A DNA stretch of 20,639 nucleotides. Origin: a virus. Its lineage: Duplodnaviria; Heunggongvirae; Uroviricota; Caudoviricetes. A program made the position numbers. Positions within the stretch are counted from its first letter, which is position 1; each line of letters begins with the position of its first letter. Positions 18,001 to 20,639 of this stretch are shown piece by piece. Location of the stretch: the IMG/VR virus record IMGVR_UViG_2648501143_000006; one strand, given 5' to 3'.

Positions 18001-20639
18001 GCGGCGTTCTGCCAGCCAGTTGTGAATCTCAACCGCATCAAACGCAGTTATTTTTTCTCCCAGCTTTACCGGACGTGGTAGTGAACCGTTTCTTACTTTA
18101 CGGTCGATGGTGGATACACTAACGCCCAGCAATTCAGCCAGGCGGAAGCGTCTGATATAGCCTTTTGTAGGAATAGTGTCGGTGTTCATGCTTCCCGTAA
18201 CCTCTTAGCGATAGTTGTTGCTTCGTTACGGGAGGAAGTATCTGTACATATATGAACAATAAAAAGGCACAGTAATGATACTGTGCCTGAATAGTTAGCT
18301 ACTCTACCCCTTACCGTTGGCGGCAGCACGTAAGTGTCTCAAAATCACATCTTCATTTGTGATTGCTAACGGTGGAATTTCGTCTTTATGAGCCACTATG
18401 CAATCCCGCCACTTCTCAGGGCTTATTTCTTTCTTTTTGCCACGGCATTCATCAGGGTATTGCGATAATATATATATTGCTGATTTTAATAGATCTTCTC
18501 TATTTCTTGCATGTCGCTCAGCTATATTATTGCCGTTTTTTGTTTCGTTCGCTGTTCTCAGCATTTGTTCTATATTTTGTTGTCTTATTCTTTCATAGTC
18601 GAAACACCCGTTAACTTTTGCATTGTACAGGTTTTCTAAATCATCCTTCGCCATATAAATATTTTTATCGGCAAGGTGGCTCAGGTGAATTTGTTCGCTT
18701 TTCGTTTCGAATTTAAACGCAGCACATTTAAACTGCTCATAAAGACGGATATATTGCTCGCCGCATTCTCGTGGGTGATAATGTCGCTTGAGCACGCCAT
18801 GCACGCGCAAAAATCCACTTAAAGGCGTTTTTCTCGCAGTAAGAGAGTGTTCGCCAGTTTGTTCAAATACCTTTGCATCGTATTCAGCTAAAGGCGGCAG
18901 GTACACAAAAAATGGCGGGAAATAAGGATCGTCAAGACTTGGCAAGGTAAGACGGTTATTATTATCAAAATCATCACAAATATAAACATCAAAAGGAAAT
19001 ATCGATCTTATATGTGCTGAGGGCTGACGGAGTGCGTAATACATCTCACGCGTTAAAACGTCATTTGGAGTTATATGGAAGGTGGAGTCACCTACAACTT
19101 CATCAAGATAATCAACATGTACATAAAAATTGATATAACATCTATCATACCAATGCCATATATCATCAATTTCACAATTTAATAATTTTGATGCTCGCTC
19201 TATCGTGCAGTAGTCCAAAGGTGGAATACCTGATTCCTGCCATAAATTTTTATGCACCGCAGTTGTTTCATGAGAGTCGTTCATTGCGTCACCTTTTACG
19301 CTGCGCCTTATTTTGTGATTGAGCCAGGCGGTAAGGCTTCCCGCTTTTCTCCCCGTCGAGCTAGGCTCAATCTATTCAGTTAGTTCGCCCTTCTGAGAGG
19401 CGTTACGTTGTAGTCTTTTCCGCTTTCCAGTGCCACCAGCAGATCAGCCCACTGTGCCAGTGCTGCTTTACGCTCATCAAAATACTGATGGCGGTTATAA
19501 ATCCCCTCTACGCCCTTAATGCGATGATTGAGGCATCGTTCCGCCACGACAGGATCAACACCCAACGCTGCTAAATGAGTACGTGCGGTGCGTCGGAAGT
19601 CGTGAATCGTGAAATTAGGCACATCCGGCATTTCGGCGCGAACCTTAGCCAGTGCTACGGGCAAAGTGCTTTCCTGAATATGTGGGATCATTCTGTTTTG
19701 CATCTTCCTGGCTGGAAGCACCCATGCGCTATTACATGAAAAGGTGTGTAGCTCTCTCAACCATTCAACGGCTGGGGAAGGTAGAGGTATATCAATAGGG
19801 TCTCCGTTTTTGCTGCGTTCTTCCGGCAAATGCCATACCGCACCATCTAAATCAAACTCTTCCCATCGTGCGGCGCATAACTCCATCTTACGAACGCATA
19901 GTGCCAGCAATAGTTTAAATGTCAGTTCGTTTTGGCGGCTGAATCCTTTTGCGGTGCGCATAGCCTCGAATAGCCTGATAAGCTCATCGCGAGTTAGCCA
20001 ACGGTCGCGGGAAACCTCTTTACCACCAGCATCAGATACTTCAAACGCTGAACAAGGGTTTATCTCCAGAGCGTGGCGTTTTATCCCGTAGTCAAAGATA
20101 CGGCGTGTCCAGCGTAATACATCTGTTGCTATCGTTGGTGCTCCTCGGTCAACGATACCTTTCAACATGTCGTCAATGTGGCGTGGCTTAACGTCCTCTA
20201 CCTTCATATGCCCAATGCAGGGGTTAATATCCTTATCAATTCTCCGGCGAAGGATATCGGGATGTTTCCATCTCGGAAGTATCTGGCGCTCGAAGTATTC
20301 GGAGGCCAGATCTGAAACACGCATGGCGTTTTTCTCAGCCTCCATTTTTGCCAGTGCTTCAGCTTTTCGTTCCTGTTTCTCTGCTGCTACGTCATAGCCA
20401 AGAGCAACTCTGGCTGACAGCTCTTTTGCTGTTTCTCTGGCTTTTGATAGTGACAGTTCGGAGTAAGAGCCTATAACCATAGCCCGCTGCTTTCCTGCGA
20501 GCTTATAGCGGAATCGCCAGAACGGGGCTGTGTAGTTTTTGGGGTAGCAAATATAAAGGCCGTTGCCGTCTGCCTTGCCATCAAATCTGTCTCCCGCCTT
20601 TATCCATGCGCGGATCTGCATATCTGTGAGTTTTGGCAT

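What the first reader, a model, noticed from the sequence alone, without database searches (positions are those of the whole stretch)
18304..19284. AT-rich 326-aa gene of unknown function in the integrase-proximal variable slot
The gene sits between the integrase and alpA, has its own terminator and a sampled GC of about 34% against roughly 50% for its neighbours, indicating recent horizontal acquisition. In P4-like satellites the slot next to the integrase is a known hotspot for antiviral cargo, so this is a candidate single-gene defense or abortive-infection protein. I recognise no catalytic motif.
Basis: partly seen in the sequence, partly recalled or inferred. Interest (0 to 1): 0.5.

Follow-up and report, generated by a model that had tools for sequence, protein, structure and literature searches.

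The report
Swappable satellite gene between integrase and alpA
The AT-rich 326-aa gene is real and belongs to a large uncharacterised protein family that always sits between the integrase and alpA genes of phage satellites; it is dispensable for the satellite's own cycle and is swapped like a cassette, so it is probably a phage-interaction or defence protein, but nothing proves that.

Summary
The ORF (18304-19284, minus strand, 326 aa), its position between a tyrosine integrase and AlpA, and its terminator are confirmed. Its GC is 39.0%, not 34%, against about 50% in the neighbours.

The element is an EcCIMP1-like phage-inducible chromosomal island inserted between yicC and dinD of E. coli. 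It is not a P4-type capsid hijacker.

The gene has no match in Pfam, NCBIfam, PHROGs, PADLOC, PDB or the phage collection. It belongs to a large family: 621 cluster representatives, about 270-380 aa, in Enterobacterales. All 32 further contexts examined read int, X, then alpA (30 of 32) or primase, across at least four unrelated integrase types.

The protein has three parts:
- an acidic N-domain with an AlpA/Xis/MerR-like winged-helix fold;
- a hypervariable middle;
- a 76-aa C-domain under strong purifying selection. It is better conserved across satellites than integrase, AlpA or primase.

Islands with 99% identical flanks carry unalignable alleles. EcCIMP1, a working satellite, has no gene there.

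The Rfam orphan 'int-alpA RNA' is the gene's leader.

Best reading (about 0.35): an accessory protein that senses or blocks phage by binding. The defence idea is plausible and unproven. The claim of recent acquisition from low GC is not supported.

The parts
18304..19284 (-). X gene: 326-aa member of an uncharacterised family found between int and alpA in satellites
   Evidence: ORF. The family has 49 clusters at 90% identity and 621 representatives at 50% identity. No hit in Pfam, NCBIfam, PHROGs or PADLOC.
19060..19236 (-). N-terminal domain (residues 17-75): AlpA/Xis/MerR-like winged-helix fold, acidic (net charge -9)
18535..19059 (-). Hypervariable middle region (residues 76-250): partly disordered, then beta-rich
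   Evidence: pLDDT is below 50 for residues 89-128; strands span residues 140-212. Identity between allele classes is 9-17%, with pN close to pS. The family-wide mean charge of this region is -12.
18307..18534 (-). Constant C-terminal helical domain (residues 251-326): motif ERHAxNRE...YPDECRG..KEISPEKWRDC...PPLxITNEDVIL+HLR
19305..19371 (-). int-alpA RNA motif (Rfam RF02996), the structured leader between the int stop codon and the X start codon
   Evidence: 54.2 bits against a gathering score of 35.8. The same motif precedes X in L003, L006, L009, L011 and L019. The outer stem shows compensatory changes in L006.
18265..18288 (-). Intrinsic terminator of X, separating X from alpA
   Evidence: 10-bp stem, 4-nt loop and a T-run. 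Other alleles have equivalent hairpins with different sequences.
18194..18232 (-). Conserved hairpin enclosing the alpA Shine-Dalgarno sequence; it marks the 3' boundary of the exchangeable cassette
   Evidence: CCCGTAAC...AAGAGGTTACGGG folds in the minimum-free-energy structure. The arms covary in L011, L006 and L019. Homology between the window and L003 resumes at 18232.
19380..20639 (-). Tyrosine integrase specific for the yicC site (conserved 5' flank)
   Evidence: Pfam hits. It lies next to yicC in E. coli, Salmonella, Pectobacterium and Pantoea.
17986..18189 (-). alpA, the master activator of the island (conserved 3' flank)
   Evidence: PF05930. Its role was shown for EcCIMP1 alpA in PMC11773190.

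Best explanation
X is a dispensable accessory cassette with a fixed position in AlpA/primase-type phage satellites. It is neither a core regulator nor a random cargo gene.

Expression (inferred). It is transcribed in the same direction as int. It lies behind a structured leader, the int-alpA RNA, and in front of its own terminator. It should therefore be expressed independently of AlpA, in the quiescent or newly arrived island, while the terminator shields the master activator gene alpA from read-through.

Protein architecture (shown). The protein is modular. A variable module combines an acidic AlpA/Xis-like winged-helix domain with a divergent beta-rich middle. A constant 76-aa helical C-domain is joined to it.

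Most likely mechanism (inferred). The variable module recognises a rapidly evolving phage component: a helper or competitor phage protein, or possibly its DNA. The constant module couples that recognition to a partner that does not depend on which island carries the gene, either a host factor or self-assembly. The outcome would be interference with or exclusion of phage by binding rather than by catalysis, as in the PICI-encoded Tai proteins or in fused sensor-effector defence proteins.

What is shown: the architecture, the synteny, the dispensability, the cassette exchange and the selection pattern. What is inferred: the expression pattern, the nature of the target, and any anti-phage effect.
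For: Dispensable. EcCIMP1 shares alpA, the 143-aa gene, AntA, DUF4222, ash, the primase and the ejection genes, but has only a 427-bp int-alpA spacer. It is nevertheless induced and transduced by phage Kapi1 (PMC11773190).

The island's control circuit looks complete without X. alpA is present, together with a P4-type C4 RNA and isrK, and both RNAs are also in EcCIMP1.

Cassette behaviour. Against the window, L003 keeps int at 99.1% and the alpA side at 98.8%, but X is replaced exactly from its start codon to the alpA leader hairpin. L005 shares only the C-terminal part. L004 and L006 replace the whole slot. At least five occupants are found among 5426 complete E. coli genomes, in 67, 41, 37, 21 and 111 genomes.

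Modularity. The N-terminal and middle regions are 9-33% identical between allele classes, while the C-domain is 74-81% identical, with pS 0.7-0.9 against pN 0.12-0.21.

The C-domain does not track the island backbone. It is 61-81% identical where int is 24-29% identical, AlpA is undetectable or 31% identical, and the primase, where detected, is 38-39% identical.

The 5' end of PICIs is a reported location for immune systems (PMC11364771). Persistent AT-richness and an own terminator give the gene a moron-like anatomy.
Against: No homology to any known defence protein: PADLOC gave no hit for X or for 138 relatives. No recognisable effector domain was found.

The family was seen only in the int-alpA context, in all 32 further contexts. 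It was never seen in the phage collection or elsewhere. Typical defence genes roam between contexts, so this strict synteny suggests a function tied to satellite biology.

Expression was not measured. No sigma-70 promoter was detected between int and X.

In EcCIMP1, which lacks X, the island still gives superinfection immunity. That phenotype therefore cannot be credited to X.
Confidence: 0.35

Rival explanations
1. X is a helper-sensing regulator of the island, working like the SaPI repressor Stl at the protein level. In the quiescent island it would hold the AlpA switch off, or tune it. A helper-phage protein binding the variable module would release it. Allelic diversity would then reflect adaptation to different helper phages.
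For: X sits immediately upstream of alpA in 30 of 32 further contexts, and the synteny is strict. Its N-domain has an AlpA-like fold. How helper phages switch on alpA in Gram-negative PICIs is described as unclear (PMC6092414). The cassette's 3' end carries the sequence between the terminator and the alpA leader hairpin, where an alpA promoter or operator could lie, and this stretch changes along with the allele. Stl repressors are similarly hypervariable and lie next to int.
Against: EcCIMP1 lacks X yet stays quiescent and is induced specifically by its helper (PMC11773190). The same AlpA protein (100% identical) pairs with X alleles that share only 37% identity over 43 aa (L003). Conversely, the constant C-domain accompanies unrelated AlpA and integrase types. 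The protein is acidic, so it is a poor candidate for operator binding. The palindrome between the terminator and alpA has no second good copy in the window. RNA-based, P4-type immunity (C4 RNA) is already present.
Confidence: 0.22
2. X is an establishment or anti-defence factor. It would be co-expressed with int when the satellite DNA enters a new cell, and it would neutralise host restriction or other immunity. Possible modes are acting as an acidic DNA or protein mimic, or excluding rival satellites.
For: The family is acidic: mean pI 5.5 and a mean middle-region charge of -12, reaching -27 in some members. X is co-oriented with int and no terminator was detected between them. The family is hypervariable, as expected for an arms-race protein.
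Against: The window allele itself is only mildly acidic in its middle region (-2). There is no similarity to ArdA, Ocr, KlcA or other anti-restriction families in Pfam. The family is absent from phages, where anti-defence genes are common (plasmids were not searched). The conserved C-domain is slightly basic.
Confidence: 0.15
3. X is an accessory recombination-directionality or architectural factor for the adjacent integrase, an Xis-like N-domain fused to extra domains.
For: The N-domain resembles excisionases: Pukovnik Xis, the GIsul2 AlpA-type excisionase and TorI. The gene always lies directly after int.
Against: X alleles are swapped freely behind 99% identical integrases. The constant domain accompanies integrases that are only 24-29% identical. 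In EcCIMP1, alpA and int suffice for excision (PMC11773190). The N-domain is acidic.
Confidence: 0.05

Closest known systems
EcCIMP1, a phage-inducible chromosomal island of E. coli MP1 whose helper is the P22-like phage Kapi1 (Pick et al. 2025, PMC11773190)
   Same: The island backbone is the same: alpA, the 143-aa gene, AntA, DUF4222, ash with C4 and isrK RNAs, primase, DUF2824 plus P22-type ejection proteins, and PerC. Shared blocks are 95-98% identical at the DNA level.
   Different: EcCIMP1 uses a tRNA-Thr integrase and has no X gene, only a 427-bp spacer containing a roughly 67-aa ORF (EcCIMP1_002). The window island sits at yicC and carries X. Relatives with an EcCIMP1-type integrase that do carry X exist (L031, L033).
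int-alpA RNA motif, Rfam RF02996 (an orphan structured RNA found by comparative genomics; function unknown as far as I know)
   Same: A full-length match at 19305-19371(-), above the gathering score.
   Different: In the window and in five other loci, the motif is followed by an X-family gene rather than by alpA. It is absent where the int-X spacer is short, and absent from islands without X: those with the 216-aa gene, EcCIMP1 and CP4-57. It therefore looks like the leader of X, not of alpA.
AlpA / Xis / MerR winged-helix proteins (PF05930, PF12728)
   Different: No Pfam hit even at E=1 in 30 members. The domain is acidic rather than basic. It is fused to about 250 further residues.
Stl master repressors of SaPIs (Gram-positive PICIs)
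   Same: They lie next to int, are hypervariable between islands, and are thought of as a helper-sensing module (PMC6092414).
   Different: Stl is a basic HTH repressor that is essential for quiescence and is transcribed divergently from the lytic genes. X is dispensable, acidic and co-oriented, and there is no sequence similarity.
Tai (tail assembly inhibition) proteins and the PICI 5'/3' immune regions (He et al. 2024, PMC11364771; Fillol-Salom et al. 2022, cited there)
   Same: They are satellite-encoded single proteins with no known defence domain. They act by binding a phage component. PICI ends are accepted sites for immune cargo.
   Different: Tai genes lie next to pri and also occur in phages and P4-like elements. 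X is confined to the int-alpA interval. No similarity between X and Tai was tested or found, and no phenotype is known for X.
yfjH of cryptic prophage CP4-57 (E. coli K-12)
   Same: An AT-rich (37% GC) 318-aa gene of unknown function in the intA-alpA interval.
   Different: It is on the opposite strand and is not detected by either family HMM. It is a positional analogue only.
P4 int-proximal defence hotspot (Rousset et al. 2022, cited in PMC13612085)
   Same: A variable interval next to the integrase of a satellite that uses an alpha-type primase and C4-type RNA immunity.
   Different: The P4 hotspot lies between psu and int and holds many unrelated systems. The window island has no psu, sid or delta, and its slot is dominated by one protein family. 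The window's own mixed-cargo hotspot is at the far end, at 2325-3599.

Membership tests
P4-like satellite (SatelliteFinder definition: int, alpA/vis, alpha primase, epsilon, sid, delta, psu) | Integrase, AlpA/Vis and an alpha-type primase (Zn ribbon, Toprim, DUF5906) | tested here: met
   Pfam hits for 19380-20639, 17986-18189 and 11198-13552. A C4 antisense RNA is also present.
P4-like satellite (SatelliteFinder definition: int, alpA/vis, alpha primase, epsilon, sid, delta, psu) | Capsid-hijacking and late-control genes sid, delta and psu | tested here: not met
   No such Pfam hit in any ORF scanned. None is annotated in the 99.4% identical ETEC1721 island. P22-type ejection proteins are present instead.
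Gram-negative PICI, EcCIMP1-like | int-alpA-pri order, about 15-20 kb, no capsid, tail or lysis genes, a specific att site | tested here: met
   Gene order and content. Insertion between yicC and dinD. Backbone shared with the experimentally verified EcCIMP1.
Gram-negative PICI, EcCIMP1-like | Induction and transfer by a helper phage | not testable with these tools
   Shown only for EcCIMP1 itself (PMC11773190).
Known anti-phage defence systems (PADLOC-DB 2.0) | Significant match of X or its relatives to a defence-protein model | tested here: not met
   No hit for X or for 138 distant family members. The DefenseFinder 'FS_*' PICI models could not be searched.
Known anti-phage defence systems (PADLOC-DB 2.0) | Phage-resistance phenotype on expression | not testable with these tools
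   This needs an experiment.
AlpA / excisionase (PF05930 / HTH_17) DNA-binding proteins | Sequence match above the Pfam threshold | tested here: not met
   No hit at E<=1 in 30 members. There is only a profile-profile match at 59% probability.
AlpA / excisionase (PF05930 / HTH_17) DNA-binding proteins | Winged-helix fold | tested here: inconclusive
AlpA / excisionase (PF05930 / HTH_17) DNA-binding proteins | Basic, DNA-binding surface | tested here: not met
   The N-domain has a net charge of -9 in the window protein and a family mean of -1.7. AlpA has +6 and pI 10.6.
int-alpA RNA (RF02996) | Covariance-model score above the gathering threshold, with a supported structure | tested here: met
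   54.2 bits against 35.8. 6 of 17 pairs show compensatory changes across six loci.

The most novel reading that the evidence does not exclude
X defines a new, widespread class of satellite-borne sensor-output proteins. It would have an exchangeable recognition module and a universal 76-aa output domain, and it would be expressed from the orphan int-alpA RNA leader. In this reading it either constitutes a previously unrecognised single-gene anti-phage system, or it is the missing link by which Gram-negative PICIs perceive phage infection.
Probability: 0.3. Interest if true: 0.75.

Novelty: new variant of a known kind. Interest (0 to 1): 0.55.

Why it matters
Phage satellites are common in Enterobacterales and are a recognised reservoir of anti-phage genes. 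How Gram-negative PICIs sense phages is still unclear.

This family stands out for three reasons. It is large (621 representatives at 50% identity) and completely unannotated. It is found only at one position in these elements. Its C-domain is better conserved across satellites than integrase, AlpA or primase.

The work also gives a concrete genetic context to an orphan Rfam motif, the int-alpA RNA. The natural allele series behind identical flanks is a ready-made specificity-swap experiment.

If the protein proves to be a defence or sensing module, it would add a new single-gene system. It would also be a case of constant/variable modular evolution bounded by two RNA structures.

Tried and rejected
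Family and homology searches.
- Pfam, NCBIfam, PHROGs and PADLOC on X gave nothing.
- Pfam at E<=1 on 30 members gave only scattered noise.
- Pfam and PADLOC on 138 distant members gave nothing, and Pfam on 10 long or distant members gave nothing.
- An HMM against PDB sequences gave only a chance hit at E 0.37.
- tblastn against 50,697 phage records gave no match.

Structure.
- The afdb50 Foldseek library was unavailable.

Genome scans.
- The genome-contig scan returned only 4 loci because the back-translated patterns were narrow.

Hypotheses rejected.
- I looked for a repeated operator for a repressor model. The 16-nt palindrome at 18243-18258 has no second good copy in the window, and the repeat finder showed nothing convincing.
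- I considered that DNA-level constraint, such as an alpA promoter or an sRNA, explains the conservation of the C-terminal region. This is rejected because synonymous sites are saturated.
- I considered that yfjH of CP4-57 is a family member. This is rejected.
- I first read window 1-615 as a Type I specificity subunit from PADLOC hits. This is rejected: it is dinD with a BRO-N domain.

Literature.
- One search for DefenseFinder FS_* names returned irrelevant papers.
- The Fillol-Salom 2022 Cell paper is not held.
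Full report
OBSERVATION

The ORF is real. It runs from 18304 to 19284 on the minus strand, starts with ATG and encodes 326 aa.
- Upstream, at 19380-20639(-), is a tyrosine integrase with Arm-DNA-bind_3, Phage_int_M and Phage_integrase domains. Downstream, at 17986-18189(-), is AlpA.
- A 10-bp GC-rich hairpin followed by a T-run lies at 18288..18265(-), 16 nt after the stop codon.
- GC is 39.0% (GC3 33%), not about 34%. Integrase is 49.7%, alpA 50.5% and the window 47.0%.

WHAT THE ELEMENT IS

megablast places the window in E. coli. The nearest record is strain ETEC1721, 99.4-99.9% identical apart from two short segments. The island lies between yicC and dinD.

Reading with transcription, the gene order is:
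- int, X, alpA;
- a 143-aa gene, an AntA antirepressor, DUF4222 and 'ash';
- six small ORFs, then a P4-alpha-type primase (Zn ribbon, Toprim, DUF5906);
- DUF2824, P22 gp7, P22 gp20 (Inj_translocase) and a 701-aa 'injection protein';
- a variable segment and PerC.

Rfam finds a C4 antisense RNA and isrK inside the 'ash' ORF, the signature of P4-type RNA immunity. No Psu, Sid or Delta and no capsid, tail or lysis gene is present.

This backbone is that of EcCIMP1, a 20-kb PICI of E. coli MP1. EcCIMP1 was shown experimentally to be induced and transduced by the P22-like phage Kapi1, and alpA is its master activator (PMC11773190). Shared blocks are 95-98% identical.

The element is therefore an EcCIMP1-like PICI with some P4-derived regulatory parts. 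It is not a P4-like capsid hijacker.

THE PROTEIN

X has no hit in Pfam, NCBIfam, PHROGs or PADLOC. It has no hit in PDB sequences and none in 50,697 phage records.

It is not an orphan, however.
- The word-indexed search finds 49 clusters in Escherichia, Salmonella, Enterobacter, Cedecea, Buttiauxella, Rosenbergiella, Phytobacter, Pectobacterium, Yersinia, Klebsiella, Pantoea, Citrobacter and Serratia. All are annotated as hypothetical.
- A profile search of 1.84 billion representatives finds 621 proteins at E<=1e-3, nearly all 270-380 aa and matched along most of their length.
- None of 148 distant members scanned hits Pfam, and none of 138 hits PADLOC.

Alignment and AlphaFold models give three parts.

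1. Residues about 17-75. The consensus is LPPLEYCxLxRAAxLLxCExxDLxHWAxxGxIxL, folding as beta-alpha-alpha-beta-beta.
   - A profile-profile comparison with AlpA aligns in register (probability 59%, E 9e-5).
   - The domain is acidic: net charge -9 here and a family mean of -1.7. The island's AlpA has +6 and pI 10.6.
   - I therefore treat it as a winged-helix fold that probably binds protein rather than DNA, as CbpM and TorI do.
2. A middle region of about 175 residues. It is partly disordered and then beta-rich. It is hypervariable, with only a GLW motif and a DLxI motif kept family-wide, and strongly acidic on average (-12).

EVOLUTIONARY BEHAVIOUR

Three results are the core of this report.

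First, the position is fixed.
- In E. coli, Salmonella, Pectobacterium and Pantoea, the gene lies between a yicC-specific integrase and alpA.
- Distant members lie in the same place behind unrelated integrases at other attachment sites.
- Twenty further loci from genome and viral-contig scans all read int, X, alpA.
- In total, all 32 further contexts have an integrase immediately upstream, and 30 have alpA immediately downstream.

Second, the content is exchanged as a cassette.
- L003 is 99.1% identical to the window through int and the leader. It loses all similarity exactly at the X start codon. Identity returns at 98.8% at 18232, the first base of the hairpin that encloses the alpA Shine-Dalgarno sequence.
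- L005 shares only the last 67 or so codons. L004 and L006 replace everything.
- Family HMMs give these results: the 281-aa allele is a clear member (E 2e-52), the 293-aa protein is marginal, and the 216-aa protein and CP4-57 YfjH are not members.
- Among 5426 complete E. coli genomes, the occupants occur as follows:

| Occupant of the slot | Genomes |
|---|---|
| 326/321-aa type | 67 |
| 316-aa allele | 41 |
| 281-aa allele | 37 |
| 293-aa protein | 21 |
| 216-aa gene (unrelated) | 111 |

- The exact 326-aa allele is present in only one of these genomes.

Third, the C-domain evolves independently of the backbone.
- It is 74-81% identical between allele classes whose N-terminal and middle parts are 9-33% identical.
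- Synonymous sites are saturated (pS 0.7-0.9) while pN is 0.12-0.21. The constraint therefore acts on the protein, not on the DNA.
- It stays 61-81% identical in islands whose integrase is 24-29% identical, whose AlpA is undetectable or 31% identical, and whose primase, where detected, is 38-39% identical. With an identical AlpA and a 99% identical integrase (L003), X shares only 37% identity over 43 residues.
- The partner of the constant domain is therefore unlikely to be AlpA or the integrase.

Low GC is a property of the family: 32-40% against 46-57% for the adjacent integrase in six of seven loci from other organisms or samples, and 36-42% in the other E. coli alleles. It does not date the acquisition.

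REGULATORY ANATOMY

The 95-nt int-X spacer is the Rfam family int-alpA RNA (RF02996; 54 bits against a threshold of 36).
- It precedes X-family genes in five other loci. It is missing where the spacer is 11-18 nt, and missing from islands without X.
- Its outer stem shows compensatory changes.
- No terminator separates int from X, and no sigma-70 consensus promoter was found in the spacer. X may therefore be co-transcribed with int.

Every allele brings its own terminator hairpin. The likely role of this terminator is to shield alpA from read-through, which is an inference.

The cassette is thus bounded by two conserved RNA structures.

FUNCTION

EcCIMP1 has the same alpA-to-PerC backbone but only a 427-bp spacer between int and alpA. 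It is still quiescent, specifically induced by its helper, and transferred (PMC11773190). X is therefore dispensable for the satellite cycle. The alpA switch and the C4 and isrK RNAs are present with or without it.

Taken together, these features fit a protein in an arms race with phages:
- dispensability;
- a moron-like anatomy;
- persistent AT-richness;
- discrete, well-conserved alleles;
- a variable/constant modular design.

The 5' end of PICIs is a reported site for immune genes (PMC11364771).

I therefore favour a phage-recognition and interference protein that acts by binding (confidence 0.35).

The main rival is a helper-sensing modulator of the AlpA switch (0.22).
- Strict synteny with alpA favours it, as does the open question of how Gram-negative PICIs sense helpers (PMC6092414).
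- EcCIMP1's independence of X weakens it, as do the lack of co-variation with AlpA and the acidic N-domain.

An establishment or anti-defence role (0.15) and a recombination-directionality role (0.05) are less likely. The remainder is unassigned.

VERDICT

It is partly wrong on three counts:
- the element is not P4-like;
- the position is conserved and dominated by one family;
- low GC says nothing about recent acquisition.

The gene is a member of a large, undescribed family specific to satellites. I rate it a new variant of a known kind, satellite accessory cargo at the integrase end, with moderate interest.

Noticed in passing
window 19305-19371 (-): The Rfam orphan motif int-alpA RNA (RF02996) fills the int-X spacer. 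In this and five other loci it directly precedes an X-family gene rather than alpA. It is absent from islands without X.
   Followed up: yes
window 15971-16058 (-) and 16083-16159 (-): A C4 antisense RNA (the P4 CI-type immunity RNA) and the isrK sRNA lie inside the 342-aa ORF annotated 'ash family protein' (15512-16540). The long ORF may be partly spurious, or the region may be dual-use. The same pair is present in EcCIMP1 and in a Pantoea island.
   Followed up: partly
window 18194-18232 (-): The alpA Shine-Dalgarno sequence is enclosed in a conserved hairpin (CCCGTAAC...GTTACGGG). Its arms covary in Pectobacterium and other islands, which suggests translational control of the master activator. 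The hairpin is also the exact 3' boundary of cassette replacement.
   Followed up: partly
window 4624-9282 (-): This four-gene operon encodes homologues of P22 gp14 (DUF2824), gp7 and gp20, plus a 701-aa injection protein. It sits in a satellite with no capsid, tail or lysis genes. The satellite seems to supply its own ejection proteins to a P22-like helper's virions.
   Followed up: partly
window 2325-3599 (genes 2350-2727 and 2731-3219, both -): This is the island's real mixed-cargo hotspot, at the end far from the integrase. The window carries an IrrE/ImmA-type M78 peptidase plus a 125-aa protein. The otherwise 99.4% identical ETEC1721 island carries an Abi-family gene there.
   Followed up: partly
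window 1-615 (-): This is the host gene dinD (BRO-N domain), with a 212-nt deletion relative to ETEC1721. The strong PADLOC hits to 'Specificity_I' and 'PDC-S13' are cross-hits to the BRO-N domain, not a restriction subunit.
   Followed up: yes
window 1352-1639 (-): A PerC-family regulator lies at the far end of the island. The EcCIMP1 homologue was reported to repress LEE expression (PMC11773190).
   Followed up: no
L024 2645-3601 (E. coli K-12 CP4-57, yfjH): CP4-57 also has an AT-rich (37% GC) 318-aa gene of unknown function between intA and alpA. It is on the opposite strand and is not homologous to X, so the int-alpA interval attracts AT-rich genes of unknown function in several island lineages.
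   Followed up: partly
L005 2136-2241 (X-alpA spacer); window 18243-18258: AT-rich palindromes lie between the X terminator and the alpA leader, and they differ with the allele. L005 has TTGTATATCTATACAG, a 14/16 match to a LexA box that lacks the invariant C. The window has TGTACATATATGAACA, with spacing that does not fit LexA. They could be allele-linked promoter or operator elements for alpA.
   Followed up: partly
L004 2621-3271 and L007 3326-3976: An unrelated 216-aa gene overlaps the integrase stop codon and occupies the same slot in 111 E. coli genomes, followed by a 470-bp AT-rich spacer. In L007 it travels with the integrase into a different island backbone (Rha, GIY-YIG, BRO).
   Followed up: partly
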